A stretch of 18,645 nt of DNA, from IMG/VR virus record IMGVR_UViG_3300029241_000184, one strand, 5' to 3'. Below the pieces are notes generated by a model. The model searched no databases. It worked only from the letters and a program-made list of their open reading frames with translations, and had not been told where the DNA came from. Source of the DNA: a virus. Taxonomy: Duplodnaviria; Heunggongvirae; Uroviricota; Caudoviricetes. Numbering within the stretch: position 1 is the first letter of the stretch; every line of letters begins with the position of its first letter. Positions 1 to 13,138 of this stretch are shown here, piece by piece. Made by a program: the position numbers and the translations under genes.

Positions 1-54
1 GCTGATAGAAACAGAAGCCACTGGAGCACCTCAAAAACACCATCATACACTAAA

Positions 55-210
55 TCAGTAAGTTGGCAGCATCACCTCCATATTGTTCTTTTCAGCATAA
101 TCTTTGATATATTCGGACTGATTATGTAAAGAATATTGCTGATGGTCGGTAGACATCCTCAAGTACTGCGCGACCCTAACTCTATGATTTTTGTCATTTT
201 CGCTAGCCAT
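55..210 (-). pseudogene. Short ORF (51 aa) with a serine-recombinase-like N-terminus; probable truncated or frameshifted gene remnant
   Basis: My own translation of the minus strand from ATG at 210 gives MASENDKNHRVRVAQYLRMSTDHQQYSLHNQSEYIKDYAEKNNMEVMLPTY then a stop at 55-57. The R-x-S-T-D-x-Q / YSL.NQ / YAE pattern resembles the catalytic N-terminus of resolvase/invertase-type serine recombinases. Below the 60-aa ORF track threshold; too short to be a functional recombinase. Confidence 0.3.
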
Positions 211-492
211 GCACGAAACCTCATGGATGATTCAATACAATGTAGTGGATAAAATTGATCAAATTTTAACCGAATTCAACTGTTTTATCATTGATTAGAG
301 CGAATTTGGTAGATCTTCGAGGTGTATGATAATCGAGAAGAGATGTGAATTATTTAGCTGATATGACCGACAGCTTTCGTTATGTGGACTCAATGTCCCC
401 ATTTGTAAATGGCTATGCTTAGTCCACATAGGTTAATGGTGTGATTATTAATTCTTTAACTAAATCAAGATAGTTAATCCATCATGGGAGAG

Positions 493-1722
493 TTATGCGG
501 CAATAACTTTGCATTTTTGAGACGAAACATAGTCACTCCACCATTGCATGAGAACCACCCGTTCAGTGAGATACTCTGCACGATTGTAGGCTGCAATTAT
601 TTCATCTTTCTTCGAGTGGGCAAGGGCGGCTTCTAAGACATCAGTCCTAAACTTGCCAGACTCCTCAGCAGCCGTTCTAGCAATGGATCGCATACCGTGA
701 GCTACAAGCTCACCTCCGAAACCCATACGGATTATGGCCGCATTAGCTGTTTGTTCATGCATGTGATTGAGTGGAGCTTTGATACTGGGGAACACCCACT
801 CTCTATGCCCGCTGATGACTTTCATTAAATCCAAAACTCGCAAAGCTTCTTTGCTCAGTGGAACTTTGTGAGGCTTCTTCATTTTCATAAACTCCGCCGG
901 GATGTTCCACATGCCAGTTTCAATATCAATATCTGACCATCTTGTGCGAACAGCTTCACCTGGGCGAACCCATGTGAGAAGTTGCCACTCAATCAGTAGC
1001 CTTGTTTCCAAACGGATAGAAGCATTGTTTAGAGCAACCAAGAAGCGAGGGAGTTCGGAAGGGGGTAATGCTGGCATATTCTGTTTTTTTGGCTTGCTGA
1101 ACCGTTGCCCCAGGTTGTCTGCCGGGTTGAATTCTATGAGTTCTTCTGTTGCTGCATAGCGGAAAATTTCATTCAGGCGGGATATGATGCGGCGAAGTGT
1201 TTCAAGGACACCTCGTTTTTCTATGGGTTCTAAATGCTGTTTAAGCATTTTAGGGCGAATCTCCTTAATTGGGGTATCACCCAATGTGGAAAAGATATTT
1301 CTCTCTAGGCTTCGCCAGATGTCGTTAGCATGATCTTGGGAGATGCCTGACGTTTTGACTTTCTCATCAAGCCACTTCTTGGCTACTGCTTGAAATGTAT
1401 GTTCCGTGGCATCTTTCAGTGCATTGGCTTTTTGGTTGTTATGAACTTGGGGGTCTATACCATTTGTAAGCAACGACAAGTATTCATCACGTAAAGCTCG
1501 TGCCTTCGCAAGTGTAAGGTGAGGATAGGTTCCTAAGCTCACCTTAGTTCGCTTTTTGGTCACAGGCACTGCATATCTGAAATACCAATTTTTCTTCCCT
1601 CCCTTCGCCAGGGGAGCGATTCGCAACAGCAAACCATCGCCGTCAAAAAGGTTAACCTCTTTTTCGGCAGGTTTGGTGCTTTTGATTTCAGTGTCAGTGA
1701 GCTTCTTAGCGATTTTGGCCAT
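493..1722 (-). CDS. int: Tyrosine recombinase, P4-family integrase (integrase of an older, neighbouring island)
   Basis: ORF 493..1803; preferred start is the in-frame ATG at 1722 (MAKIAKKLTDTEIK..., GAGGG about 10 nt upstream). N-terminus KLTDTEIK...DGDGLLL is typical of P4-like integrase arm-binding domains; C-terminus carries HGMRS and AYNRAEY, consistent with the H-x-x-R and catalytic Tyr boxes. Paralogous to the integrase at 11401..12591. Confidence 0.88.
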   Translation of the reverse strand: MAKIAKKLTDTEIKSTKPAEKEVNLFDGDGLLLRIAPLAKGGKKNWYFRYAVPVTKKRTKVSLGTYPHLTLAKARALRDEYLSLLTNGIDPQVHNNQKANALKDATEHTFQAVAKKWLDEKVKTSGISQDHANDIWRSLERNIFSTLGDTPIKEIRPKMLKQHLEPIEKRGVLETLRRIISRLNEIFRYAATEELIEFNPADNLGQRFSKPKKQNMPALPPSELPRFLVALNNASIRLETRLLIEWQLLTWVRPGEAVRTRWSDIDIETGMWNIPAEFMKMKKPHKVPLSKEALRVLDLMKVISGHREWVFPSIKAPLNHMHEQTANAAIIRMGFGGELVAHGMRSIARTAAEESGKFRTDVLEAALAHSKKDEIIAAYNRAEYLTERVVLMQWWSDYVSSQKCKVIAA

Positions 1723-1820
1723 GTTTGGGACCCTCGATTTTAGGACCCATCTTCGTGGGTCCCATTCAGGGTGCCATAACTCGTAGTTCTCAGCAATTCT
1801 CACTAGACTACAATAGACGT

Positions 1821-1854
1821 AAAAAAGCCCGCAGAGCTTGTGCTGTGCGGGCTT
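1821..1854 (-). terminator. Hairpin plus T-run on the minus strand; diverged duplicate of the ssrA terminator
   Basis: aaaaaagcccgcagagcttgtgctgtgcgggctt matches the ssrA terminator at 12708..12742 (aaaaaagcccacagggcttgtgccgtgcgggctt) with three substitutions; GC stem followed by a T-run when read on the minus strand. Confidence 0.5.
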
Positions 1855-1888
1855 AGTAGACTTTACTGAACTTCAGTACATCAATATT

Positions 1889-1910
1889 TGGTGGGCTGGC
1901 GGAGTCTGAC
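1889..1910. other. Degenerate copy of the ssrA 3' end; likely attR of the P4-like satellite and junction between the two tandem islands
   Basis: tggtgggctggcggagtctgac versus the true ssrA 3' end tggtggagctggcgggagttgaac at 12775..12798 (about 20 of 24 positions with two 1-nt gaps), lying the same distance and order from the terminator-like hairpin as in the intact ssrA. Confidence 0.5.
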
Positions 1911-1961: not shown

Positions 1962-1982
1962 GGATATACCTAAGCGTATACC
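1962..1982. repeat. Two GTATACC-type motifs (ggatatacc, cgtatacc); candidate integrase arm-type sites on the far arm
   Basis: Same heptamer family as the four copies at 12614..12661 next to int; acctaagcgtataccaat here versus acctaaacgtataccaat there. Confidence 0.4.
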
Positions 1983-2102
1983 AATTCTGCTTTGTAGGCA
2001 CAAAAATACAGTCATGCTGGTATGACAATTCCAACCCCGTCACAGCTTGTATCCATCTGGTCACACATGACAAAAGCAGGCAACCAATACTAAGAATTTA
2101 CT

Positions 2103-2762
2103 TTACGGCTCTTCGCTATTGGGGTTCTTAACTTTTTCCCATTCAATGCCCAACCCTTTAAATTTTTGTGCAAATGGGATTACTATGAGCGCAACACAAG
2201 CCCCTAATAGTGCCATTCTCTCAGTGGTTAAAAAATTAAATCGTATATCTGCAATTACTATAAGTAATAAGGCGACAGCAAGAAACCAAGTAACTCGTTG
2301 AAAAATATCCATCGTTTGAGATTTTTTCTGCCGAATATCATTTTTCCTAACTGCTGACTGCTCTGCGGTAAGGGCTCGAAAAGTTGGGAAAAGATTGAAA
2401 TCAGATTTAACTAATTCACCCGAATCACTGACTGAATACAGTGAAAATGGCAATGGGTTATTAGGCAGGGAGGATACGGTCACCAAGAAAAGTGGGATTT
2501 TTTCATTTCCAATTGCTTGTTTGTATCTTTTTAATTGATTTAGAGTGTTTTCGCTATGTGCAAATCTGTCTGACTTTATTTCAATAATAGCAAGATATTC
2601 TTTCTTTTCTGGATCTATAATTGCAAAGTCTGGTCTATATGTGTTTTTGCCATCGTTGGAGAAAAATGCTGGTTCGTATAATATAGAATCTTTGGTATAT
2701 CCTAGTGATAATAAGTATTCAGAGAATTTATTTTCCGCCTCTGAATGGTAATTGTTGTCCAT
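2103..2762 (-). CDS. Membrane-anchored protein with an N-terminal restriction-endonuclease-like (PD-(D/E)xK, HsdR-N-like) motif and two C-terminal transmembrane helices; AT-rich cargo gene
   Basis: 219-aa ORF with GAGAGGGA about 7 nt upstream of the ATG at 2762. N-terminal segment LGY...YRPDFAIIDPEKKEYLAIIEIKS carries a D ... E-I-K arrangement as in restriction-endonuclease-fold proteins; C-terminus has two hydrophobic stretches (WFLAVALLLIVIADI and ALLGACVALIVIPFA). Visibly AT-rich compared with the neighbouring primase gene. Confidence 0.7.
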   Translation of the reverse strand: MDNNYHSEAENKFSEYLLSLGYTKDSILYEPAFFSNDGKNTYRPDFAIIDPEKKEYLAIIEIKSDRFAHSENTLNQLKRYKQAIGNEKIPLFLVTVSSLPNNPLPFSLYSVSDSGELVKSDFNLFPTFRALTAEQSAVRKNDIRQKKSQTMDIFQRVTWFLAVALLLIVIADIRFNFLTTERMALLGACVALIVIPFAQKFKGLGIEWEKVKNPNSEEP

Positions 2763-2956
2763 TACAGTCCCTCTCTGCTGTGTGAAAACTAGTGAGCTAA
2801 ATTAATAAGGTAACTAAAAAACGCAAGAGATTCAATTGATTAACGAGTGATAGGTCAAGTCAAGGTCAAACTCGGCGATCATGATGGTTATCTTGTTGAA
2901 TCACAGCCAGACATGATGAATTTCTAGGTTGGAGAAAAAACTTTTTTTCAGGAAAA

Positions 2957-3058
2957 CTGTTCACACTGTTCACACTGTTCACACCGTTGTTTTTGCTTTT
3001 AATTTCATAGTGATACGTTGTGAATGGTTGGTAAACAGTGAACACTTTACTGTTCATT
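2957..3058. repeat. Iteron cluster: three tandem CTGTTCACA repeats (2957..2983) plus inverted and variant copies (gtgaaca 3038..3044, tgttcat 3052..3058); candidate ori-type alpha-binding iterons
   Basis: Tandem 9-bp repeats seen directly; the core TGTTCAC matches the P4 type I iteron octamer TGTTCACC that I recall as the alpha-protein binding site in P4 ori and crr. Lies immediately downstream of the alpha-like gene. Confidence 0.6.
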
Positions 3059-3108
3059 TTTGCCGTTTTGCAGGTAAAAAAAGACCGGCGATTGCCGGTC
3101 AGGGTAGA

Positions 3109-5442
3109 TTATTTTGCTACAGGGTCATCACATTTCGGCAGCCAGTCGGCGTTGCTTTCCTCTCTTAGTGTTAGATTGGTTTGTATGCCCTGATTTTTTC
3201 GGCGCTTCTCATAACTTAGCCCGTACTCTTTCAGCATAGCTGGCAGCCCCTTACCGAACATGGTGAGGCTCAGGGTGTTCCTGTAGCCGTGGGCCTCCAT
3301 ATACGCCAGATAGGCATGATACAGATACAGGCGCGGCTGACGCGGAATGATGTTGGCATTGCCAATATACATTCCCTCAGGCTCCGGCAGTGCTTCCAGA
3401 TAGCCGCAAAAATCAAATGTCGGGTCAGCATCGCGTTTAATACTGAGCGCCTCGTCCGAGTTCTGCTGTGACTGGAGCAGGGCGCGGGCGGTCATCGGGT
3501 CGCTGAACTTCTGCATAAGCTGCCGAACAATCACCGCCAGCTCACGGGCGATTTTATTCTTAAGCTGCGGGTCACGTTCCTCCGGGGCAATCTGTTCCGG
3601 GAAATGCAGAATCACCCGGCGCCGTGAGACACCGCCGCTACGGTCGGTAAAGCGCATCGGGTTATTGTTCACGGCCAGAATCACCGCTGGAATATGGGTG
3701 GAGTACGCATCCTTGTATTTCGGGTCAACGGAGACCGCATCCCCGCCGGTGATGGCCTTGAGTCCTGCCCCGTCACCACTCCATTTTTCCTGGTCAGGCA
3801 GGCGTATCAGCGAGAAGCCAATCAGCGCAGCGCGTTCACGCGGTGATTCCAGCGTTTCGATGGTGGCCGATGTGGCGTTATCTTCCCCGGCGAGCAGGGT
3901 CGCAATTTCGGCCAGAATACTTTTCCCGCTGCCACCCGGCCCGGTCACTTCGAGAAAGAGCTGCCAGTCGTAGCGGTTCGCCAGTACCATAAACAGGGCG
4001 GCAAGTATCACGTCGCGTTTTTCCGGTCGGCCACCGGCGGCACGGTCGAGCCAGCGCCAGAAATCCGGCGCATGGGTTTCCAGCGTTTCGCCCTCCACCG
4101 GTGGGGTAAAATCGACATCACAGAGTGTGCGCAGCCAGTGCGATTTATGATGCGGGCTGAAAGTACCGGTAGCGGTATCGAGTACGCCGTTACGAAAACC
4201 AATCAGACGGCGCGCCGGTGCGTCCTGCTGCGGAATAATCAGTTTCAGGGTCTCCACCACTGAGGCAATTTTCCCCGACGAGAACGGTGCGCGCAGACGC
4301 TGAAATAACCCGGCCACGTCGCGGGCAAAATCCGATGGCGGAATGATTTTCCATATACCGGCCTCATAGCGGGACAGGAGCTGGCCATTTGCGTCCACGG
4401 CCAGCGCTTCGCCGTAATGTTCATGCACCCGCATTGCCTTTTCACTGGTGCTCATGGCGGTAAATTCCGCCTCGCTCATGGTAGTGAAAGGACTGTCAGC
4501 CAGTGGCCGGATGGCGTCATAAATCGCTTTCCGCGTCGCCTCTTCGCCTTTCTGAACGAACGCATCATTCCAGTCACCGAACACCGGCGGCAGGGCAACA
4601 ACACCCTCACAGGCGTCTGCGGCCGCAGCGGCTTTTGTCTGGCCGGCGCCGTTAAGGTCACGGTCGGCGGCGAGGACAATCTGACAGGCCGGGTGTTTCT
4701 GACGGGCAAGGCTCGCCAGAGAAAAGAGGTTCACGGAGGACAGCGCCACCATGACGGTTTCGCTGGTCAGGTGATGTACGGTGAGTGCCGTCGCATAACC
4801 CTCCGCAATCCACAGGCGTTTTCCGGCCTGTTTTTTTCCTCCGATGACATGACATGTCCCTTTGACCTGACCGCCTTTCAGGGTGCGTTTGAGACCGTCA
4901 GCATTAATAAGCTGAAGGTTAACCAGTGCGCCGGTATCCTCATACAGCGGGACAACCACATCCCCGGCGCGGAACGTCACGCCGCCGGTTTTATGCATGA
5001 CTGTCAGTACCGGACATTCCCGGTCGGGGAACCCCTTGCGGGTGAGGTAGGCGTTGTCGGTGGCCGGGCGCGTTTTCTCCAGCAGTCTGACGGCCAGCGC
5101 GGCCGCCGCTTTGCGGTCGGCATCGGTTTCAGCCTCTGCGGCTGCCATCACTTCCGGGGCAACCGGCGACAGATTGCCGGTCACGGCGTTCACCTTCCCG
5201 GCGGCTTCTGACGGGGTCACGCCAAACACTTTTTCTACCAGCTTAAGCCCGTCACCCGCGCCGCACTGATTGCAGAACCACGTCCCGCGCCCTTCTTTAT
5301 CGTCAAAGCGAAAACGGTCAGAGCCGCCACACACCGGACAGGCCTGATGGCGGTTTTTAATCACCTTCACACCCAGCGCCGGAAGAATGCGCGGCCAGTG
5401 GCCGCACGCCTGTTTTACCGTTTCTGTTACGTTCATTTTCAT
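3109..5442 (-). CDS. P4 alpha-type primase/helicase (zinc-binding primase N-terminus plus helicase domain)
   Basis: ORF 3109..5493; preferred start at ATG 5442 (MKMNVTETV..., GAGGGAG upstream) giving 777 aa, the length of P4 alpha. N-terminal CPVCGG...CNQCG zinc-binding motif; Walker A-like GPGGSGKS in the C-terminal half. Confidence 0.9.
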   Translation of the reverse strand: MKMNVTETVKQACGHWPRILPALGVKVIKNRHQACPVCGGSDRFRFDDKEGRGTWFCNQCGAGDGLKLVEKVFGVTPSEAAGKVNAVTGNLSPVAPEVMAAAEAETDADRKAAAALAVRLLEKTRPATDNAYLTRKGFPDRECPVLTVMHKTGGVTFRAGDVVVPLYEDTGALVNLQLINADGLKRTLKGGQVKGTCHVIGGKKQAGKRLWIAEGYATALTVHHLTSETVMVALSSVNLFSLASLARQKHPACQIVLAADRDLNGAGQTKAAAAADACEGVVALPPVFGDWNDAFVQKGEEATRKAIYDAIRPLADSPFTTMSEAEFTAMSTSEKAMRVHEHYGEALAVDANGQLLSRYEAGIWKIIPPSDFARDVAGLFQRLRAPFSSGKIASVVETLKLIIPQQDAPARRLIGFRNGVLDTATGTFSPHHKSHWLRTLCDVDFTPPVEGETLETHAPDFWRWLDRAAGGRPEKRDVILAALFMVLANRYDWQLFLEVTGPGGSGKSILAEIATLLAGEDNATSATIETLESPRERAALIGFSLIRLPDQEKWSGDGAGLKAITGGDAVSVDPKYKDAYSTHIPAVILAVNNNPMRFTDRSGGVSRRRVILHFPEQIAPEERDPQLKNKIARELAVIVRQLMQKFSDPMTARALLQSQQNSDEALSIKRDADPTFDFCGYLEALPEPEGMYIGNANIIPRQPRLYLYHAYLAYMEAHGYRNTLSLTMFGKGLPAMLKEYGLSYEKRRKNQGIQTNLTLREESNADWLPKCDDPVAK

Positions 5443-5456
5443 CGTTGTTTTCTCCC

Positions 5457-5777
5457 TCAGTGCACTACCGGTACGGTGATGTGACGGGCGCAAAGCTCAT
5501 CCATCACGGCCAGCCCGAGAAAGGACAGCGACGGCGCGGCTTTGAGTGGACCGGCTTCCATTAAATCTTCCAGTAATGCACAGGCTATCTGGCGGCCTTT
5601 TTCCTCGCCGTGCTGGCGCAGGTAGAAGCCCTCCAGCTCGGTAGCGATGGCACTTTCCAGCGCGTCGAGGGTGAGGTTCGGGTAGCGGCGCTGGCGTTCG
5701 CACAGGGTCAGCCATGCACAGGCCACGGCGCGACGATACAGCGCGGCGCGTAATACGGGCGGTAATGGCTTTTTCAT
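5457..5777 (-). CDS. Hypothetical protein of the satellite early operon (106 aa)
   Basis: ORF whose start overlaps the stop of the upstream ORF (translational coupling), ending 15 nt before the alpha start; same strand and operon as the alpha gene. No recognisable motif. Confidence 0.55.
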
Positions 5778-6001
5778 ACGTTGCCCTCCCCGGTCAGCCA
5801 GTGCTGATTGCAGCGTTCAACCACGCCGTCGAGCTGGGCGGTCATGAGGTAAATCACGGAGGTGAGCTGTAACTGCTGCGCCGGGTCACGACGAACGGTG
5901 GCGCAGTCCTGTACCTGCATCAGGTCGCTGACGAGCTGGCCGACATTGCGCATATGCTCCAGACATTCGAGGTCACGGGCGGTAATGGTGGTGTGTCTCA
6001 T
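5774..6001 (-). CDS. Hypothetical small protein of the satellite early operon (75 aa)
   Basis: ORF with start/stop overlaps (ATGA) to both neighbours on the same strand, typical of coupled small genes in P4-like early operons. Confidence 0.5.
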
Positions 6002-6192
6002 GCGCGCACCTCCGCAACAGGCAGACGGCCAGCAAATGAGAGGACGTAATCGCGAACGAGGGAAAGGCGTGCGGCGTGCTCATCACCGGCAACGGTGCGG
6101 AGCATACAAATACGGGGTTTACGGTCTGCACGACGAACGGCGGCAAACACAAAAACAAATTGCGGGTGTAACGGGGTGAGGATAGTAGCCAT
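5998..6192 (-). CDS. Hypothetical small protein (64 aa), possibly Icd-like; short form of the 185-aa ORF
   Basis: Internal ATG at 6192 ([19 protein letters not shown]...) preceded by GGAGG about 8 nt upstream; the longer 5998..6555 extension is low-complexity and overlaps the AlpA-like gene, so the short form is preferred. The Icd-like label is a recollection of similar annotations, not verified. Confidence 0.45.
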
Positions 6193-6551
6193 GATGGCAG
6201 CCTCCATTGAGTAGCGGTTACTGCTACCACCGGAAACGCCAATTTCACTGGTGGCAGCCCGAACGGGGTTGGCGTAACCGGCCTCAATGGATACCGGCCA
6301 GCCCGAAGGCTGCCCCGCCCGGACTACCATTATCTTGCTGGAACCATGGTGTATAAAAAGACACCACAACCCGGAAAATGGGTGTGCCTGAGCTACGACG
6401 AAAAAAAAGACGCACGGCGCGTCTGGTGTCGCCATTGAGTTTCGCGGAACGCCAATTCCGGCTGTCGATTTTGCGACAGCGGGAAAACTATACCTGGAAA
6501 CGGCGAAAAGAAGCAAGCCAGAAAAAGGGGCTGAATGCTGAACGGTCATCA

Positions 6552-6818
6552 TCATGCGTCACAGCCCCGGTTGCGTTCGGCAATGCGATCTGCCATCCAT
6601 GCGGTGATTTCAGACTGCGCCCACGCCACGTTTTTACCGCCCAGGCTGATTTGTTTCGGGAAGGCTTCCCGGCTGATGAGGTCATAAATGGTCGACCGGG
6701 ACAGGCCACACAGATGCATCACTTCGGGCAGGCGGATAAAGCGCTCCTGAACGGCATCAGAAACCGGCATCAGCGGCGCGGCAGGGGCAGAAGACGGGGA
6801 AGAAAAAGCGGTGTGCAT
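6552..6818 (-). CDS. alpA: AlpA-family phage transcriptional regulator (small DNA-binding, excisionase-like)
   Basis: [54 protein letters not shown] matches the AlpA/excisionase-like helix-turn-helix family; GAGGT upstream of the ATG at 6818. An alternative start at 6770 (MPVSD) is possible. Confidence 0.8.
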
Positions 6819-7087
6819 CGGGCTACCTCACAAAGTCCATACAGTGCCGGTCGTGTCCGTCCGGCTTCGGGTAGCTCTCTATTTTGTGAATATTTTCCCT
6901 CAGGGCAACAAGTCTTTTTATAGCTCCTCGTCACACAACAGAGCGATTTTTGAACAATGGCAAACGCTGGCAAACAGATGCAAATCAATGCATTACATTG
7001 CAGTAACTTTAAGTACTTTCACTTATATATTTCCTCATAATTAATCGGAAAAAAGACTAAATCCGACACCCCAGGCAAAAAGCAAAA

Positions 7088-7192
7088 GGTGAACAGTAGT
7101 GAACAGTCGGTGAACAGTTACACCCTCAACTGTTCACCCTTTATCTTACTGTATTACTTATCTTTTTCTTTTCAGTGAACAGTAGTGAATAG
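7088..7192. repeat. Second iteron cluster: GGTGAACAGT x3 (7088..7117), inverted TGTTCACC (7131..7138), GTGAACAG (7175..7182) and variant gtgaatag; candidate crr-type alpha-binding iterons in the divergent early/late control region
   Basis: Direct and inverted copies of the same octamer as at 2957..3058, about 4.1 kb away; I recall that P4 ori and crr are separated by about 4.5 kb. Confidence 0.6.
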
Positions 7193-7268
7193 TTATAAGT
7201 AAAAAAACAAACAGTGAGTAAGGTTTTCCTGAGACCTTTCTCTGGCCAGCCGGGTTTTAAGGTCTGTT

Positions 7269-7286
7269 TGTGCCATTTTTGCCACA
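7269..7286 (+). promoter_or_regulatory. TGT-N12-ACA dyad upstream of the sid-like gene; candidate Ogr/Delta activator site of the late promoter
   Basis: TGTgccatttttgccACA about 75-90 nt upstream of the ATG at 7359; P2/P4 late promoters carry a TGT-N12-ACA element near -55. No clear -10 identified, so low confidence. Confidence 0.3.
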
Positions 7287-7358
7287 ACGGCAATGAATCG
7301 TGTTGTTGTGTCTGGCGCGGCAGAATCTCCTCAGGTTGAAACGAAGAGGAGACCCGAC

Positions 7359-8096
7359 ATGACTCAGACCGCTGTTATTCCCGACTACCTTAAACCTGCA
7401 ATGGAACGCCTTGAGACTGCCCGCTCGGCGCATCTCGTCAATGCCAGCCGTATGGATGAAACCACGACGGCCATCAGCCAGGTGCAAACGCAAAAAAAGG
7501 AACTGGAGCAGGAAAACGGCAATGATTCCGGCGCATGGCGCGCCGCCTTTCGTGCCGGTGGTGCTGTCATTACCGACGAGCTGAAACAACGCCATCTGGC
7601 GCGCGTGGCACGGCGGGAACTGGCGCAGGAATGTGACAGCATGAACGAGGTACTGTCTTTTGAGCTGGACAGGCTCAAAGGAGCCTGTGACCGCACGGCC
7701 AGAGCATACCGTCAGGCACATCACGGCGTCCTCAGTCAGTATGCAGAGCATGAACTTGATGCTGCCCTGCGTGAAAGCTGCGGTGCCCTCATCAGAGCAA
7801 TGAAACTCAACATACTGGTTCTGAATAATCCGCTTGCTAATACGACCGGGCATCAGGGATATATCGAACCGGAAAAAGTTGTAATGCAGCAGGTGAAAGC
7901 GTGGCTTGAACAGGCCGTAAAGGGCTGCAATATCCGTCTGACCGATGAACCGGTGCTGTTTAAAACAGGGCTGTCGGCTTCCACACTGCCGCATATGGAA
8001 CATGACGTTGCGACCATGCCCGGTCAGCGAAAAGTCTGGCAGGAAAAAATGTGGGAACGTGAAGCTGACCTGAAAGCACGGGGGTTATTGTCATGA
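7359..8096 (+). CDS. sid: Sid-like protein (P4 capsid size determination / external scaffold), first gene of the late operon
   Basis: ORF 7293..8096 trimmed to ATG 7359 (MTQTAVIPDYLKP..., AAGAGGAG upstream) giving 245 aa, close to P4 Sid (244 aa); position immediately upstream of the Ogr/Delta-like and psu-like genes matches the P4 sid-delta-psu order. Called from size and synteny only. Confidence 0.55.
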   Translation: MTQTAVIPDYLKPAMERLETARSAHLVNASRMDETTTAISQVQTQKKELEQENGNDSGAWRAAFRAGGAVITDELKQRHLARVARRELAQECDSMNEVLSFELDRLKGACDRTARAYRQAHHGVLSQYAEHELDAALRESCGALIRAMKLNILVLNNPLANTTGHQGYIEPEKVVMQQVKAWLEQAVKGCNIRLTDEPVLFKTGLSASTLPHMEHDVATMPGQRKVWQEKMWEREADLKARGLLS

Positions 8097-8338
8097 TGCG
8101 CTGCCCTTTCTGCCGCACGGCGGCACACGTTCGCACCAGCCGCTATATGTCTGACAGCGTCAAAGAGAGTTACCTGCAGTGCCAGAATGTGCACTGCTCG
8201 GCGACATTCAAAACGCATGAGTCCATCTTTGAAGTGATACGTTCGCCGGTCGTCGATGAGAAACCCGCGCCGGTGCCGACAGCCCCCGTGGCACCCCGTC
8301 GGGTAAAAGGCTGCTACAGCTCGCCGTTCCGCCATTAA
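8093..8338 (+). CDS. Ogr/Delta-family zinc-finger late-gene transcriptional activator
   Basis: MMRCPFCRTAAHVRTSRYMSDSVKESYLQCQNVHCSATFKTHES has the C-x2-C ... C-x4-C arrangement and RTSRY / QCQN motifs of P2 Ogr and P4 Delta; start overlaps the stop of the sid-like gene. Confidence 0.85.
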   Translation: MMRCPFCRTAAHVRTSRYMSDSVKESYLQCQNVHCSATFKTHESIFEVIRSPVVDEKPAPVPTAPVAPRRVKGCYSSPFRH

Positions 8339-8354
8339 TCAGGAGAGACAACCC

Positions 8355-8921
8355 GTGACCACTCTGACCTTACAGCAGGCCTATGACGCCTGTCAGACGA
8401 ACAAAACCGCGTGGCTGAACCGTAAAACCGAACTGGCCGCCGCAATGCAGGAATATCAGGAATTATTGCTGGATGACAATGTATCAGGCTCCCGCAGATT
8501 ACAGATGCTGCGTGACCTGATTGACGTAAAAAAATGGGAAGTTAATCAGGCCGCCGGTCGCTACATCTTCTCGCATGAGGAGGTGCAGCGCATCAGCATC
8601 CGTAACCGGCTGCATGATTTTATGCAGCAGAACGGCGCAGAGCTGGCCGCCGCACTGGCACCGGAGCTGATGGGGATTAAAAACCAGCCCGCGATGATAA
8701 AAAATCGCGCGCTTGACCGTTCAGTCTCTTACCTGAGAGAAGCTCTTTCCGTCTGGCTGACCGCTGGAAATGACATTAATTATTCTGCACTGGATAACGA
8801 CATCTTAACGGCCATCGGATACAGGCCTGACGCGCCTTCGCGGGATGATAATCGTGAAAAATTCACCCCTGCACAGAACATGATTTACACCCGTCGACGC
8901 GCCGGACTGGCCGCGCAGTAG
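8355..8921 (+). CDS. psu: Psu-like protein (P4 polarity suppression / capsid decoration)
   Basis: 188 aa (P4 Psu is 190 aa), third gene of the sid-delta-psu type operon; N-terminal region ...QQAYDACQTNKTAWLNRKTELAAA... and QAAGRYI resemble Psu as I recall it. Confidence 0.75.
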   Translation: MTTLTLQQAYDACQTNKTAWLNRKTELAAAMQEYQELLLDDNVSGSRRLQMLRDLIDVKKWEVNQAAGRYIFSHEEVQRISIRNRLHDFMQQNGAELAAALAPELMGIKNQPAMIKNRALDRSVSYLREALSVWLTAGNDINYSALDNDILTAIGYRPDAPSRDDNREKFTPAQNMIYTRRRAGLAAQ

Positions 8922-8967: not shown

Positions 8968-8994
8968 CCATGCATCCCTAAGGTGCATGGTTTT
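8968..8994 (+). terminator. Candidate rho-independent terminator after the psu-like gene
   Basis: Inverted repeat ccatgca / tgcatgg with a 9-nt loop followed by tttt. Confidence 0.4.
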
Positions 8995-9094
8995 GCATGC
9001 GTTTTCCCGACCCTGCACTCCCTGCCAGCGCCAGTTGCGGCGCGGCCTGAGGCCACCTTTGCACCTGCATTAAAAGCGGTCCCTTAAGCGGGCA

Positions 9095-9113
9095 GGCGTG
9101 GCGGGGAGAGCAT
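9095..9113. other. cos-like site (P2/186/P4-type 19-nt cohesive end sequence)
   Basis: ggcgtggcggggagagcat differs at one position from the phage 186 cohesive end GGCGTGGCGGGGAAAGCAT as I recall it, and at three from P2 (GGCGAGGCGGGGAAAGCAC); lies just downstream of psu, where cos sits in P4. Confidence 0.55.
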
Positions 9114-9375
9114 TGCGCGCTAAGTTAAAGATACTTTTAATTTTACAACTACGTTGTGATATCTTTTTAACTCGCTAATTCAATAGTGATAAAACAATTT
9201 TTTATAGCTAATAAGAATCAATTCCAGACTAACAATCGTCAAAAACTATGTTTTGTGAATGGCTATCTAAAAATACTGGCTTAATTATTTGACGTGATCT
9301 AAAGTACTGATGAAATTATTATACTGATTTAATTTTTTAACTGCTAAAAACATTAACAAAAAATAAGGGATTCAC

Positions 9376-11361
9376 ATGGCAGAGAAATCATTTAATGTAG
9401 AAGTACAGATGGATTATTTAGATAAGGTTTCTAAATCTTCTGCATTACAAGCAATCGCTGAGTTGGTATGGAATGCCTTAGATGCTGATGCTGAAAATGT
9501 ATATGTTGATTTGACAGAGTCTGAATTAGGACTCTCGCATATATTTATCAGGGATGATGGTAATGGTATTCCCTATGAGAATGCAGAAAAATTATTTAGT
9601 TCACTGGGCGGATCATGGAAAAAAGACAAGGTTTTATCAGAAAGAAAATCTCGTTTTTTACACGGAAAAGAAGGGCAGGGACGTTTTAAGGCATTCTCAA
9701 TAGGTCGATATATTGAGTGGGATACTACTTATTTACTTGATGATGTATATTATGAATATAAAATAAAAGGAATAGCTGATAATAAGAAAAAGATTTCAGT
9801 TTCTGATAAGGTAGTATCAAGTGAAGTTAAATCAGGAACAGTTGTTTCTATATTGGAATTGGTGAAAAACTTCACCTCTTTGACACCTCAAAAACTATCT
9901 GAGTTTCTTTCCACTACACTTGCTTTATATCTTAGTAAATACCCATCCGTAAAAGTATTTGTAAATCGAGAACAAATCGATCCAACAGCACAGATTTTAT
10001 TTGATACAAGCTATAAATTAGATGATGTAGTTTATTGTGATGAATTACATTCATATGAGTTACAAGTTATTGAATGGAAGTCAGCTAAAGAAAATGAGAT
10101 TTTTTTATGCGACAAAGAAGGTTTTCCCTTAATAAGTTATGAGAAGAAAATTAGAGGGACTGGTACATATTCTTATTCTGTTTATTTGAAGTCTACACAT
10201 TTGACCAAACTTTCCCATGAGGGTACTTTGTCGCTCATGGATTTAGAGCCTTCTTTAAGCCCTGTATTAAATAAAGTCGAAGGTTTGATAAAGGAACACT
10301 TCCGGAAAAGAGATCATGAAAAGTCAAGGGAGTTAATTGATAAATGGAAAAATGAAGGTGTTTATCCGTATGTTGGTAAGGCCGAAAATATTGTTGAGGA
10401 TGCTGAAAGAAAAGTATTCGATATTATGGCCATCAATGTTATAAAATACATACCACAATTTGATAATGGCGATCTTAAACTTAAGAAATTTCAGTTTAAA
10501 TTACTCAAGCATATTGTTGGGAGTTGCCCTGATGACTTGAGAACTATATTAGAGGAGGTTCTCTCGCTTCCTAAGGAAAAACAAGCTGAATTGGCTGAGA
10601 TATTAAGGGATGCCTCATTGTCAGCTGTTATTAGTGTTTCCAAAATAATTACTGATAGATTGAAGTTCATATCTGGGCTTGAGAATGTATTATTTCATCC
10701 GAATACAAGAAAAGTATTCAAAGAGAGAAGTCAGCTTCATAAAATAATGGCGGATAATACATGGTTTTTTGGTGAGTCTTTTACATTGAGTGTCAATGAT
10801 AAGTCACTAACTGAAGTATTAAAAGTACATTTGGAAAAGCAAGGGATTGATATTCCAGTTGATGAGAAAGTAACTAGGATAGATGGTAGTGTAGGTATTG
10901 TTGATTTAATGCTTACTAGAAGTATAGGCAAAAATTACCCAGATGAGCGTGAGCATATTATTATCGAATTAAAGGCACCTAAAGTAAATATAGGTCAATC
11001 AGAAATAGAACAGGTTAAATCCTATGCGTATGCAGTTGCTGAAGACGCAAGATTTAATGGTTTAAAAACAAAGTGGAACTTCTGGGTTATATCGAATGAG
11101 CTCACAACTTATGCTCTCAGAGAATTAAAACAAAAAAACCTTCCTGAAGGTGCAATATATCAAGCTGAAGAAATGACTATTTGGATAAAAACTTGGTCCC
11201 AACTTATTCAAGAGAACAAACATAGATTGGGTTTTCTACAGAATCAGCTTAATATTTCGTATGACCGTGAAGATGGACTACAGTTCTTAAAGCAAAAGTA
11301 TGCTGAGTACACTGAGGGCGTTGTATTTGAAAATGAATCACAGGATGAGTATATAGATTAA
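9376..11361 (+). CDS. 661-aa GHKL-type (HATPase_c, Bergerat-fold) ATPase fused to a C-terminal PD-(D/E)xK-like nuclease motif; candidate single-gene anti-phage defense protein carried as satellite cargo
   Basis: Single uninterrupted ORF with AAGGGA 6 nt upstream of the ATG. N-terminus: E29-x3-N33-A-x-D36-A (N box; E29 codon at 9460), D60-D-G-N-G64-I (G1 box, 9556..9567), G97-K-E-G-Q-G102 (G2 box, 9664..9681). C-terminus: GIVD510LML ... IIIE531LK533 (D at 10903..10905, E-L-K at 10966..10974) in the arrangement of PD-(D/E)xK nucleases. Strongly AT-rich with A/T-ending codons, unlike the flanking P4 core genes. Confidence 0.85.
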   Translation: MAEKSFNVEVQMDYLDKVSKSSALQAIAELVWNALDADAENVYVDLTESELGLSHIFIRDDGNGIPYENAEKLFSSLGGSWKKDKVLSERKSRFLHGKEGQGRFKAFSIGRYIEWDTTYLLDDVYYEYKIKGIADNKKKISVSDKVVSSEVKSGTVVSILELVKNFTSLTPQKLSEFLSTTLALYLSKYPSVKVFVNREQIDPTAQILFDTSYKLDDVVYCDELHSYELQVIEWKSAKENEIFLCDKEGFPLISYEKKIRGTGTYSYSVYLKSTHLTKLSHEGTLSLMDLEPSLSPVLNKVEGLIKEHFRKRDHEKSRELIDKWKNEGVYPYVGKAENIVEDAERKVFDIMAINVIKYIPQFDNGDLKLKKFQFKLLKHIVGSCPDDLRTILEEVLSLPKEKQAELAEILRDASLSAVISVSKIITDRLKFISGLENVLFHPNTRKVFKERSQLHKIMADNTWFFGESFTLSVNDKSLTEVLKVHLEKQGIDIPVDEKVTRIDGSVGIVDLMLTRSIGKNYPDEREHIIIELKAPKVNIGQSEIEQVKSYAYAVAEDARFNGLKTKWNFWVISNELTTYALRELKQKNLPEGAIYQAEEMTIWIKTWSQLIQENKHRLGFLQNQLNISYDREDGLQFLKQKYAEYTEGVVFENESQDEYID

Positions 11362-11371
11362 CATAATTGAA

Positions 11372-11402
11372 AGGCTCGCCAGTTTATTCTGGCGAGTTTC
11401 TT
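11372..11402 (+). terminator. Rho-independent terminator after the cargo gene, convergent with the end of int
   Basis: Stem ctcgccag / ctggcgag (8 bp) with a 6-nt loop, followed by tttctt. Confidence 0.5.
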
Positions 11403-12591
11403 AAAGACTGGATACTTTATTACCCCACCAATTCATTAATTCTATTCTTTGCGGAAGATATATAGAGCGATTATAAGCTCTTCGTACTTCATCTTTATAA
11501 CTATGAGCTAGTGCTGCCTCAATAACATCAGCATTGAATCCTGCTTCATTCATGGCAGTACTGGCTATAGAACGTAAACCATGTGCAACAAGCTTTCCAC
11601 CATAACCAATTCTCTTCAGCGCAGCATTAGCAGTCTGGCTATTCATTGGCAGCTTAGGGTCATTTCTGCTAGGAAAAACATGTTCTCGATGGGCACTGAT
11701 TGGCTTCATCACTTCTAAAATTTCTAATGCTTGAGGAGACAAAGGTACGATGTGCTCTCGTTTAGCCTTCATCCGTTCGGCTGGAATCGTCCAAAGCTTC
11801 GCATCAAGATCGATCTCTTCCCACCGAGCTCCGGAAGCCTCAGAAGGACGCACAAGGGTCAGGAGCTGCCACTCAATTAGACAGCGAGTCGAAACAGATA
11901 GATTCGACATGACTAGAGAACGCATCAGCTTTGGCAATTCCTCTGGCCGCAGCGTCGGCATATTTTGCTTTTTGGGCTTCTCAAAGGCCATCCCAACTCC
12001 TGAGGCTGGGTTCGCATCAATCAGACCCGTGTTTACGGCATAAATCATTATCTCGTTAATGCGTTGCACCAGTCGACGTACAGTCTCAAGCGCCCCACGA
12101 GCTTTGATGGGCTCAAGAGCTTCAACCAGTGTCCGGGCTTTGATTTGCTGAACAGGGATCTCACCGATGGCAGGGAATACATCTTTCTCCAGTGAGCGCC
12201 AAATGTCTTTTGCGTAATCAGGGGTAACGCTTTTGCTTTTGAGCTGGAACCAGTTAGCGGCGACCGTTGAAAAAATACTGTCCAGTGCGATTTGCTGCTG
12301 TTCCTCTGCAACTTCAGCTTGAATCTGTGGGTCGATTCCATTGGCTAATAAGGCAAGGTAATCAGCTCTTAACCCTCGGGCATCAGCAAGCGATAGGGCG
12401 GGGAAGGCTCCGAGTCCCATCATTGTCCGCTGTTTTGTTGCCGGACGTTGATAACGGAAACGCCAGAGCTTTTTGCCGCTGGTTTTCACTATCAGGAAAA
12501 GCCCATCGCCATCATGTAGCGTTAGATCCTTCTCTAGCGCTTTAGCGCGCAGAACTTCGGTGTTGGTCAGGGGGCGTGTTGTCCGTGCCAC
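11401..12591 (-). CDS. int: Tyrosine recombinase, P4-family integrase of the satellite, adjacent to ssrA
   Basis: 396-aa ORF; N-terminal LTLHDGDGLFL...GKKLWRFRY as in P4-type integrases; C-terminal HGLRS and AYNRSIY catalytic boxes; same orientation as ssrA and immediately downstream of it. Confidence 0.92.
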   Translation of the reverse strand: MARTTRPLTNTEVLRAKALEKDLTLHDGDGLFLIVKTSGKKLWRFRYQRPATKQRTMMGLGAFPALSLADARGLRADYLALLANGIDPQIQAEVAEEQQQIALDSIFSTVAANWFQLKSKSVTPDYAKDIWRSLEKDVFPAIGEIPVQQIKARTLVEALEPIKARGALETVRRLVQRINEIMIYAVNTGLIDANPASGVGMAFEKPKKQNMPTLRPEELPKLMRSLVMSNLSVSTRCLIEWQLLTLVRPSEASGARWEEIDLDAKLWTIPAERMKAKREHIVPLSPQALEILEVMKPISAHREHVFPSRNDPKLPMNSQTANAALKRIGYGGKLVAHGLRSIASTAMNEAGFNADVIEAALAHSYKDEVRRAYNRSIYLPQRIELMNWWGNKVSSL

Positions 12592-12613: not shown

Positions 12614-12661
12614 GGTATACGCTTTTAGGTATACATCCTACCGTATACCTAAACGTATACC
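12614..12661. repeat. Four direct copies of a GTATAC(C) motif at 12- to 14-bp spacing between the int start and the ssrA terminator; candidate integrase arm-type sites
   Basis: ggtatac (12614), ggtatac (12628), cgtatacc (12642), cgtatacc (12654); the same motif recurs at 1962..1982 at the other end of the element. Confidence 0.45.
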
Positions 12662-12707
12662 AATAATCACCGGATTTAGCCGGATGCTCTCGGACAACTA
12701 CAGACAC

Positions 12708-12774: not shown

Positions 12775-13138
12775 GTGGTGGAGCTGGCGGGAGTTGAACC
12801 CGCGTCCGAAATTCCTACATCCTCGGTACTACATGCTTAGTCAGTCTTTATATTCGCTTGCCAGCTGCGGACGGACACGCCACTAACAAACTAGCCTGAT
12901 TAAGTTTTAACGCTTCAACCCCAGGCAGGGCTTCCACGCGATCTCTTTTGGGTTTGACCTCTCTTGATCCCCGTCCTAAGAGCGGAGGCTAGGGAGAGAG
13001 GGCTCTAAGCAGGTTATTAAGCTGCTAAAGCGTAGTTTTCGTCGTTTGCGACTATTTTTTGCGGCTTTTTACGAGGCCAACCGCCCCTCGGCATGCACCT
13101 TGGGTTTCGCAAATCCCGTCGAATCCAGAATCAGCCCC
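12775..13138 (-). ncRNA. ssrA: tmRNA (SsrA, transfer-messenger RNA)
   Basis: Minus strand reads GGGGCTGATTCTGGATTCGACGGG ... GGAGTTGAACCCGCCAGCTCCACCA; internal tag reading frame at 13017..13049 (minus) encodes ANDENYALAA followed by a stop. Length about 363 nt; ends are within a few nt. Confidence 0.95.

What the first reader, a model, noticed from the sequence alone, without database searches (positions are those of the whole stretch)
2957..3058. Three tandem CTGTTCACA iterons downstream of the alpha gene (ori-type)
Three tandem 9-bp repeats are followed by inverted and variant copies. The core matches the octamer I recall as the P4 alpha-protein type I iteron (TGTTCACC), suggesting a functional replication origin for the satellite next to its primase/helicase gene.
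Basis: partly seen in the sequence, partly recalled or inferred. Interest (0 to 1): 0.45.

Follow-up and report, generated by a model that had tools for sequence, protein, structure and literature searches.

The report
Satellite phage crr iteron cluster
The repeats are real and form the "cis replication region" (crr) of a P4-like satellite prophage in E. coli: binding sites for the satellite's own primase-helicase that help its true origin, 4 kb away, to fire, which is a well-known kind of element that here carries one extra repeat.

Summary
Three perfect tandem CTGTTCACA units lie at 2957-2983, followed by inverted and degenerate copies up to 3058. They sit 51-152 nt beyond the stop codon of a P4 alpha-type primase-helicase gene (3109-5442, minus strand).

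The recalled octamer is right: the P4 GenBank record annotates TGTTCACC/TGTTCACA as "ori type 1 repeat".

The site aligns with the 120-bp repeat of P4 crr, the cis-required replication region downstream of alpha. It does not align with the origin. The ori1 homolog is at 7088-7193 and has exactly P4's iteron spacing.

The window is an E. coli chromosome carrying a complete P4-like satellite integrated at ssrA.

Across 80 related elements, TGTTCAC piles up only just after alpha and upstream of the alpha operon. The iteron columns are better conserved than the other columns of the unit (0.93 vs 0.75).

Two things differ from P4: one crr unit instead of two, which about half of relatives share, and three tandem iterons instead of two. 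Near-identical satellites carry 2, 3, 4 or 7 copies, so the array behaves as a small variable-number repeat.

Verdict: an ordinary new member of a known element, of low interest.

The parts
2935..3063 (.). Single crr unit. It is the homolog of the 120-bp direct repeat of P4 crr and is 129 bp here because of one extra 9-bp iteron.
   Evidence: Alignment to X51522 4291-4410 and 4471-4590; blastn to P4; 36-sequence alignment.
2935..2948 (+). A6-C-T7 tract at the outer edge of the unit. It is conserved in both P4 units and in almost all relatives. Its role is unknown; a bend or an easily melted element is my inference.
   Evidence: Invariant columns; column frequency >=0.9.
2958..2965 (+). Type I iteron 1, TGTTCACA.
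   Evidence: aligned to the P4 'ori type 1 repeat' at 4494-4501.
2967..2974 (+). Type I iteron 2, TGTTCACA. One of the three tandem copies is extra relative to P4 and to 35 relatives.
   Evidence: 9-bp insertion.
2976..2983 (+). Type I iteron 3, TGTTCACA.
   Evidence: aligned to P4 4503-4510.
2984..3018 (.). T-rich spacer of about 31% G+C between the tandem and the inverted iterons. It contains the conserved TTTTT and TTTCA blocks.
3019..3026 (-). Degenerate iteron CATTCACA, 5/8 matches to TGTTCACC. It aligns with P4 GGTGAATA.
3030..3037 (-). Iteron variant TGTTTACC. Closest relatives have TGTTCACC here.
3037..3044 (-). Iteron TGTTCACT with an exact core.
3051..3058 (+). Degenerate iteron TGTTCATT. 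It aligns with P4 TGTTCACC / TCTTCACC.
3083..3100 (-). Rho-independent terminator of alpha, the homolog of P4 t-alpha.
   Evidence: aligned to the P4 terminator feature; column identity 0.91.
3109..5442 (-). Alpha primase-helicase, 777 aa and 84.7% identical to P4 alpha. Residues 671-770 are the origin-binding winged-helix domain, the presumed reader of the iterons.
   Evidence: Pfam domains; tblastn; PDB 1KA8, E=2e-47.
5457..5777 (-). cnr homolog (P4 ORF106, DUF5375). From the literature it is the negative regulator that acts on alpha.
   Evidence: Pfam, E=9.5e-64; position as P4 ORF106.
7088..7193 (.). ori1 homolog, the actual origin. It has six type I iterons with P4-identical spacing and an AT-rich spacer.
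   Evidence: X51522 rep_origin annotation.
1889..1903 (.). Distal att copy, TGGTGG-GCTGGCGG, a duplicate of the ssrA 3' end at 12776-12791. It marks the end of the satellite, about 1 kb beyond crr.
   Evidence: the match of EcPF15 and four related genomes begins at 1888-1894.

Best explanation
The region is the crr (cis replication region) of a complete P4-like satellite prophage integrated at ssrA in an E. coli chromosome. It is a non-coding module of about 130 bp just past the alpha terminator. It carries seven copies of the type I iteron TGTTCAC(C/A/T): three tandem at 9-bp spacing, then a T-rich spacer, then three in inverted orientation and one direct.

Proposed mechanism: after derepression or excision, the C-terminal winged-helix domain of alpha (residues 671-770) binds these iterons and the six iterons of ori1 at 7088-7193, 4.1 kb away. 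The two alpha-DNA complexes interact by looping. This is needed in cis for alpha (helicase plus primase) to open and prime at ori1. Cnr modulates alpha binding and so controls copy number.

Shown here: homology, position, iteron content and order, conservation, the cognate ori, and the cognate binding domain.

Inferred from the P4 literature and not tested here: alpha binding, looping, the cis requirement, and initiation at ori1 rather than at crr.

The third tandem iteron is a 9-bp slippage expansion of the ancestral pair.
For: - Layout: int, cos-like site, psu, delta, sid, ori, alpA, C4/CI RNA, ash, cnr, alpha, iterons, att. This is the P4 order as seen from an integrated element (against the P4 map).
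- Homology: blastn gives 77% identity to P4 over 88% of 2700-7400, and the match starts exactly at P4 4291, the first base of the annotated crr.
- Alignment: the three-way alignment with both P4 crr units keeps the A/T tract, the iterons in the order + + - - +, and the terminator.
- Distribution in relatives: in 80 related loci from more than 20 genera, TGTTCAC is concentrated at 0 to +400 after the alpha stop and 1.6-2.6 kb upstream of alpha, with little elsewhere. Offsets from the stop codon are fixed at about 52/64/127/136.
- Conservation: columns that P4 annotates as iterons are 0.93 identical against 0.75 for the rest of the unit, Mann-Whitney p=1.3e-5.
- Binding domain: the alpha C-terminus matches PDB 1KA8, the P4 origin-binding domain, at E=2e-47.
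Against: - No experiment on this element exists. Binding, looping and the cis requirement are carried over from P4.
- The window has one 120-bp unit where P4 has two. However, 21 of 41 relatives with an alpha-adjacent cluster also have one unit.
- Three of the seven iterons are degenerate (5/8, 6/8 and 7/8 matches to TGTTCACC), and none of the seven has the full TGTTCACC.
- In roughly half of the relatives no cluster lies within 300 bp of alpha. In many of these (e.g. L020, L026, L030, L031, L056 and several Pectobacterium loci) a cluster lies 0.7-3 kb further on; in others none was found with this motif, which may have diverged in the more distant lineages. Adjacency to alpha is therefore not obligatory.
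Confidence: 0.9

Rival explanations
1. One reading: this cluster is itself the replication origin, where alpha melts DNA and starts synthesis next to its own gene.
For: The region has origin-like anatomy: iterons in both orientations flank a T-rich spacer of about 31% G+C. From my own knowledge, crr is also a required part of P4's second replicon (oriII = ori2 + crr), so it is not merely passive.
Against: The region is homologous to P4 crr, not to the annotated rep_origin. A separate cluster at 7088-7193 aligns with P4 ori1 and keeps all six iterons at identical spacing plus the AT-rich block. From my recollection of the P4 literature, initiation maps to ori1.
Confidence: 0.06
2. The cluster acts mainly as a negative element. 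Its iterons titrate alpha or pair ('handcuff') with ori, together with Cnr, to limit copy number or to exert incompatibility against co-resident P4-like satellites. The number of tandem iterons would set the strength of that effect.
For: Iteron number varies (2, 3, 4, 7) among nearly identical satellites. E. coli genomes often hold several P4-like crr copies, with a median of 2 places per positive genome and up to 8. The general behaviour of iteron plasmids, and Cnr stimulating alpha binding, come from my own knowledge.
Against: As I recall the P4 work, deleting crr abolishes replication rather than raising copy number. This reading is not exclusive of the main explanation.
Confidence: 0.2
3. 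The cluster is a relic: the prophage is defective, the repeats are no longer used, and the third copy is neutral replication slippage.
For: Several iterons are degenerate in this lineage (TGTTCATT, TGTTTACC, CATTCACA). The third copy is absent from the six closest complete genomes.
Against: All P4 core genes are intact ORFs with strong family matches. The ori, a cos-like site, the CI RNA and both att copies are present. The core iterons match a template conserved across genera.
Confidence: 0.07
4. The repeats are integrase arm-type or other recombination sites, since they lie between int/att and alpha as attP does in P4.
For: In P4 the attP arm repeats lie only about 120-350 bp from crr.
Against: The att core in the window is about 1 kb away at 1889-1903. 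The P4 arm repeats are separately annotated 12-mers at other positions. The same octamer recurs at ori, far from att.
Confidence: 0.01

Closest known systems
Bacteriophage P4 crr (cis replication region; X51522 4291-4590, X05623)
   Same: - Position immediately 3' of the alpha terminator, between alpha and att.
- Alignable sequence, including the A/T tract.
- The same octamer iterons in the same order and orientation.
- The same partner ori about 4-4.7 kb away.
- A cognate alpha protein 84.7% identical to P4 alpha.
   Different: - One 120-bp unit instead of two separated by 60 bp.
- Three tandem iterons instead of two.
- All three tandem copies end in A (TGTTCACA), and no iteron here has the full TGTTCACC.
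- A 219-aa HsdR_N-domain ORF lies between crr and att, where P4 has only attP arms.
Bacteriophage P4 ori1 (X51522 rep_origin, iterons at 9310-9413)
   Same: The same type I iterons, bound by the same protein. Both have iteron groups flanking an AT-rich spacer.
   Different: ori1 lies upstream of the alpha operon, next to sid. It has six iterons at 10-11 bp (helical) spacing rather than 9 bp. Its homolog in the window is at 7088-7193, not in the finding.
Iteron-controlled plasmid replicons with auxiliary iteron clusters (e.g. P1 incA, R6K, F incC)
   Same: A Rep-type initiator binds repeated sites at the origin and at a second, separate cluster, and the clusters communicate by looping or pairing. 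This is stated from my own knowledge.
   Different: Plasmid iterons are 17-22 bp, the auxiliary clusters are inhibitory, and those origins need DnaA. Here the iterons are 8-9 bp and the second cluster is required for replication in P4. No DnaA box lies in or near it.
Replication origins of PICI/SaPI-type satellites (iterons next to pri-rep)
   Same: A satellite-encoded primase or helicase initiator has short iterons adjacent to its gene.
   Different: Those origins are single clusters immediately downstream of rep and are themselves the origin. The P4 type is bipartite, and the gene-adjacent cluster is the auxiliary one. The proteins are unrelated in their DNA-binding domains; I did not test this here.

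Membership tests
P4-type crr (cis replication region) | Lies in the non-coding stretch directly 3' of the alpha gene and its terminator, on the att side. | tested here: met
   The iterons lie 51-152 nt past the alpha stop, the terminator is at 3083-3100, and att is at 1889-1903. This is the same order as the X51522 features.
P4-type crr (cis replication region) | Sequence homology to the 120-bp crr repeat of P4. | tested here: met
   The blastn match begins at P4 4291. The three-way alignment has 78% mean column identity, with the conserved blocks at the iterons, the A/T tract and the terminator.
P4-type crr (cis replication region) | Several type I iterons (TGTTCACC and one-base variants) in both orientations. 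| tested here: met
   There are four exact TGTTCAC cores plus three variants, in the order + + + - - - +.
P4-type crr (cis replication region) | The same iterons are present in a separate ori cluster about 4-5 kb away on the same element. | tested here: met
   The 7088-7193 cluster aligns with P4 ori and has identical spacing.
P4-type crr (cis replication region) | A cognate alpha protein with the C-terminal origin-binding domain. | tested here: met
   Residues 671-770 match PDB 1KA8 at E=2e-47. The full protein is 84.7% identical to P4 alpha.
P4-type crr (cis replication region) | Two 120-bp direct repeats separated by about 60 bp, as in P4 itself. | tested here: not met
   Only one unit is present. 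This is a feature of P4 and not of the family: 21 of 41 relatives with an alpha-adjacent cluster have one unit.
P4-type crr (cis replication region) | Bound by alpha and required in cis for replication. | not testable with these tools
   This needs EMSA or footprinting and a replication assay. It is known for P4 only from literature that I could not open here.
P4 ori1 (origin proper) | Located between the ORF88/alpA-like gene and sid, and homologous to the P4 rep_origin. | tested here: not met
   The finding lies at the other end of the alpha operon. The ori homolog is at 7088-7193.
P4 ori1 (origin proper) | Six iterons at about 10-11 bp spacing with a 35-bp AT-rich block. | tested here: not met
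   The tandem spacing in the finding is 9 bp. The 0/10/21/42/86/96 pattern is found at 7089-7185 instead.
Classical iteron plasmid origin | 17-22 bp iterons with DnaA boxes next to the rep gene. | tested here: not met
   The repeat unit is 8-9 bp. No DnaA-box match lies between 1294 and 3509.

The most novel reading that the evidence does not exclude
The number of tandem iterons in crr may be a fast-evolving tuning knob. Slippage changes it (2, 3, 4 or 7 copies in near-identical satellites, with an independent 3-copy allele in another lineage). That would alter alpha occupancy and hence replication efficiency, copy number, or interference between co-resident P4-like satellites, and might compensate for decay of the inverted iterons.
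Probability: 0.12. Interest if true: 0.35.

Novelty: new member of a known kind. Interest (0 to 1): 0.15.

Why it matters
Mostly it does not change anything. The finding correctly flags the replication apparatus of a P4-like satellite, and the check shows which of the two iteron clusters is which.

Practical value:
- crr and ori are unannotated in RefSeq E. coli genomes (the match is listed under 'none' or under the alpha CDS). The conserved template (A5-6 N T6-7, two 9-bp iterons, a T-rich spacer, inverted iterons, terminator) could be used to annotate P4-like replicons.
- The natural series of 2, 3, 4 and 7 iterons offers ready-made alleles for asking how iteron number at crr affects P4-type replication. 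This matters for the P4 cosmid and phasmid vectors now being engineered.

Tried and rejected
- **Primary P4 replication papers.** I tried to open Tocchetti 1999, Ziegelin 1993 and Lindqvist 1993. None is held, and full-text searches returned only secondary mentions. Statements about alpha binding, looping and the cis requirement therefore rest on my own knowledge and on GenBank feature annotation.
- **Tenth TGTTCAC, inside alpha (3666-3672).** It encodes Val-Asn of the conserved VILAVNNNP motif, and relatives use synonymous codons freely. I treat it as a coding coincidence and not an iteron.
- **DnaA box.** P4 has TTATCCACA just outside crr unit 1. The window has no match near crr, and matches across the whole window are at the chance level.
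- **Compensation idea (array expansion offsets loss of the inverted GGTGAACA iteron).** Both expanded haplotypes carry a mutated copy. However, 2-copy relatives L013 and L015 also have GGTGAGCA, and the whole P4-like 'GGTGAAGG' flavour lacks that iteron. The association is weak.
- **ORFs over the repeats** (2866-3057 minus strand, 2929-3168 plus strand). The homologous stretch is non-coding in P4, and the spacers vary with indels. I rejected them as genes.
- **Loose pattern TGTTCACNNTGTTCACNNTGTTCAC in IMG/VR.** It mostly hit unrelated tandem repeats, including giant-virus contigs, in contigs with no alpha homolog. Those hits are uninformative.
- **Promoter scan of 2700-3200.** It found nothing.

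Full report
**1. What is in the sequence**

Positions 2957-2983 read CTGTTCACA three times head to tail. Tandem Repeats Finder reports 2956-2988, period 9, 3.7 copies, 95% matches.

The 7-mer core TGTTCAC occurs 10 times in the 18.6-kb window against 2.2 expected, and none of 200 dinucleotide-preserving shuffles reaches 10. Nine of the ten fall in two clusters:
- 2958, 2967 and 2976 (+) and 3038 (-).
- 7089, 7099, 7110 and 7175 (-) and 7131 (+).

Degenerate copies complete the first cluster: CATTCACA at 3019-3026 (-), TGTTTACC at 3030-3037 (-) and TGTTCATT at 3051-3058 (+).

**2. Context**

The window is an E. coli chromosome. The flanking genes smpB, ratA, bamE, recN, nadK and grpE match at 97-99% to complete genomes.

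Between the tmRNA gene ssrA (12776-13138, minus strand) and a 14-15 nt duplicate of its 3' end at 1889-1903 lies a complete P4-like satellite:

| Feature | Coordinates | Evidence |
|---|---|---|
| Integrase | 11401-12591 | |
| HATPase/REase-like cargo gene | 9376-11361 | |
| cos-like site | 9095-9113 | |
| psu | 8355-8921 | |
| delta | 8093-8338 | |
| sid (64% identical to P4 Sid) | 7359-8096 | |
| Second iteron cluster | 7088-7193 | |
| alpA-like gene | 6552-6818 | |
| isrK and C4/CI RNAs | 6403-6480 and 6247-6334 | |
| ash | 5998-6555 | |
| cnr/DUF5375 | 5457-5777 | |
| alpha (777 aa, minus strand) | 3109-5442 | |
| alpha terminator | 3083-3100 | |
| The finding | 2957-3058 | |
| HsdR_N-domain ORF | 2103-2762 | |

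The integrase at 493-1803 lies beyond the att copy and belongs to a second, tandemly inserted island.

**3. Identity of the repeats**

blastn of 2700-7400 against phage records finds P4 itself (X51522): 77% identity over 88% of the query, with the match starting at P4 4291. [quoted passage not shown] It is made of two 120-bp direct repeats, each carrying five 'ori type 1 repeat' octamers, and is followed by the alpha terminator and alpha. X05623 carries the same annotation.

Reading those octamers gives TGTTCACA, TGTTCACC, GGTGAATA, GGTGAACA and TCTTCACC/TGTTCACC. The recalled iteron is therefore correct.

Window 2925-3110 aligns with either P4 unit. The alignment preserves the A6-N-T7 tract, the tandem iterons, a T-rich spacer, the inverted iterons and the final direct iteron. 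With unit 2 it also preserves the terminator. The window has a 9-bp insertion that corresponds to exactly one iteron.

The other cluster (7088-7193) aligns with the annotated P4 rep_origin. All six iterons sit at identical relative positions (0, 10, 21, 42, 86, 96), and the intervening AT-rich block is nearly identical.

The finding is therefore the crr homolog, and the origin proper is 4.1 kb away.

**4. Is it constrained?**

I fetched 80 loci encoding alpha relatives (58-95% amino-acid identity, more than 20 enterobacterial genera) and mapped TGTTCAC relative to alpha.
- Hits pile up only at 0 to +400 after the stop codon and 1.6-2.6 kb upstream of the start. A further set of hits in 44 loci lies inside alpha.
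- The in-gene site encodes Val-Asn of the motif VILAVNNNP and varies synonymously, so it is a coding coincidence.
- In close relatives the downstream sites sit at fixed offsets from the stop, about 52, 64, 127 and 136.
- With a one-mismatch octamer and a threshold of at least 3 sites per cluster, an upstream (ori) cluster is present in 55 of 61 loci with enough flank.
- An alpha-adjacent cluster is present in 38 of 77 loci. Many of the rest have a cluster displaced 0.7-3 kb further downstream. No locus has crr without ori.
- An alignment of 36 distinct alpha-proximal units shows that the columns P4 annotates as iterons are 0.93 identical, against 0.75 for the other columns of the unit (Mann-Whitney p=1.3e-5). 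The terminator columns are at 0.91.

**5. The reader of the sites**

Alpha residues 671-770 match PDB 1KA8 at E=2e-47 over the entire 100-residue chain. 1KA8 is deposited as 'putative P4-specific DNA primase' and is the P4 origin-binding domain of Yeo et al. 2002; I saw that citation.

The primase (Zn ribbon, Toprim) and D5-type helicase domains are intact.

**6. Mechanism**

Shown here:
- Homology, position and iteron content.
- Conservation of the iteron columns.
- A cognate ori and a cognate binding domain.

Inferred from my own knowledge of P4 work (Flensburg & Calendar 1987; Ziegelin et al. 1993, 1995, 1997; Tocchetti et al. 1998, 1999):
- Alpha's C-terminal domain binds type I iterons in both ori1 and crr.
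- The two sites are brought together by looping.
- crr is required in cis although synthesis starts at ori1.
- Cnr increases alpha's DNA binding and limits copy number.
- Replication does not depend on DnaA.

I could not open these papers in the library. Only the citations for Ziegelin 1993 and Tocchetti 1998 were seen, in reference lists. [quoted passage not shown] No DnaA box lies near the window's crr.

**7. How it differs from P4**

(a) One unit instead of two. Among relatives with an alpha-adjacent cluster, 21 have one unit and 20 have two, so this is ordinary variation.

(b) Three tandem iterons instead of two.
- None of the 35 other aligned units has the insertion.
- The six complete E. 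coli genomes carrying this crr flavour all have a 242-nt span against 251 nt in the window, which is two copies.
- Exact-pattern scans found the same sub-lineage with 2 (L088), 3 (L086), 4 (L087) and 7 (L084) copies.
- They also found an independent 3-copy allele in the alpha-proximal unit of a different P4-like element (L089, and also L112).
- Among the P4-like arrays retrieved, 186 have two copies and 5 have three or more.
- The array therefore behaves as a rare small variable-number repeat generated by slippage.

(c) Both expanded haplotypes have a mutated inverted iteron: GGTAAACA in the window and GGTGAGCA in L084, L086 and L087. The 2-copy alleles EcPF15 and L088 keep GGTGAACA. Some 2-copy relatives also carry GGTGAGCA or GGTGAAGG, so I do not claim compensation.

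**8. Verdict**

This is a new member of a well-known kind of element, with a minor copy-number polymorphism as its only unusual feature. Interest is low (0.15).

Noticed in passing
window 7088-7193: The true ori1 homolog: six type I iterons with exactly P4's spacing and a nearly identical AT-rich block, between the alpA-like gene and sid. TRF reports it as two arrays (7089-7118 and 7174-7193).
   Followed up: yes
L084 1308-1370; L087; L086; L088; L003: Near-identical satellites carry 7, 4, 3, 2 and 2 tandem ACTGTTCAC units in crr. L089 (2006-2032), a different P4-like lineage, independently has 3 in its alpha-proximal unit.
   Followed up: partly
window 2103-2762 (-): A 219-aa ORF with an HsdR_N_2 domain lies between crr and the distal att, where P4 has only attP arm repeats. 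It has no PADLOC hit. Five related genomes (H21-H25) match the window only from 2932 onward, so the stretch between att and crr looks like a second variable cargo site.
   Followed up: partly
window 9376-11361 (+): A 661-aa HATPase_c_3 protein with weak hits to PADLOC 'REase_II' and to HSDR_N_2 sits between the cos-like site and int, the known defence hotspot of P4-like satellites. It is a candidate anti-phage cargo of unclear type.
   Followed up: partly
window 1-1903: A second tyrosine integrase (493-1803, -) has an upstream region 71% identical to that of the satellite's int, directly abutting the duplicated ssrA 3' end. This indicates a second island inserted in tandem at ssrA.
   Followed up: partly
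window 1965-1985 and 12644-12664: A 21-nt direct repeat, TATACCTAAGCGTATACCAAT, 95% identical between copies, lies on either side of the two att copies. These are possibly integrase arm-type sites.
   Followed up: no
window 6247-6334 (-) and 6403-6480 (-): Rfam finds C4 antisense RNA (the P4 CI immunity RNA type, 82.9 bits) and isrK (74.5 bits) inside the region listed as the 'ash' ORF. This fits P4's RNA-based immunity.
   Followed up: no
window 9095-9113: GGCGTGGCGGGGAGAGCAT matches the P2/P4 cohesive-end sequence I recalled in 16 of 19 positions, downstream of psu. A 10-11 bp tandem repeat (TGCATGCGTTT x2) lies nearby at 8984-9005.
   Followed up: partly
window 3666-3672: An isolated TGTTCAC lies inside alpha and is conserved in 44 of 80 relatives. 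It encodes Val-Asn of VILAVNNNP and varies synonymously, so it is a coding coincidence.
   Followed up: yes
L002 1492-1500 (P4 4282-4290): P4 has a perfect DnaA-box sequence, TTATCCACA, immediately outside crr unit 1. The window's satellite has none in the equivalent place.
   Followed up: partly
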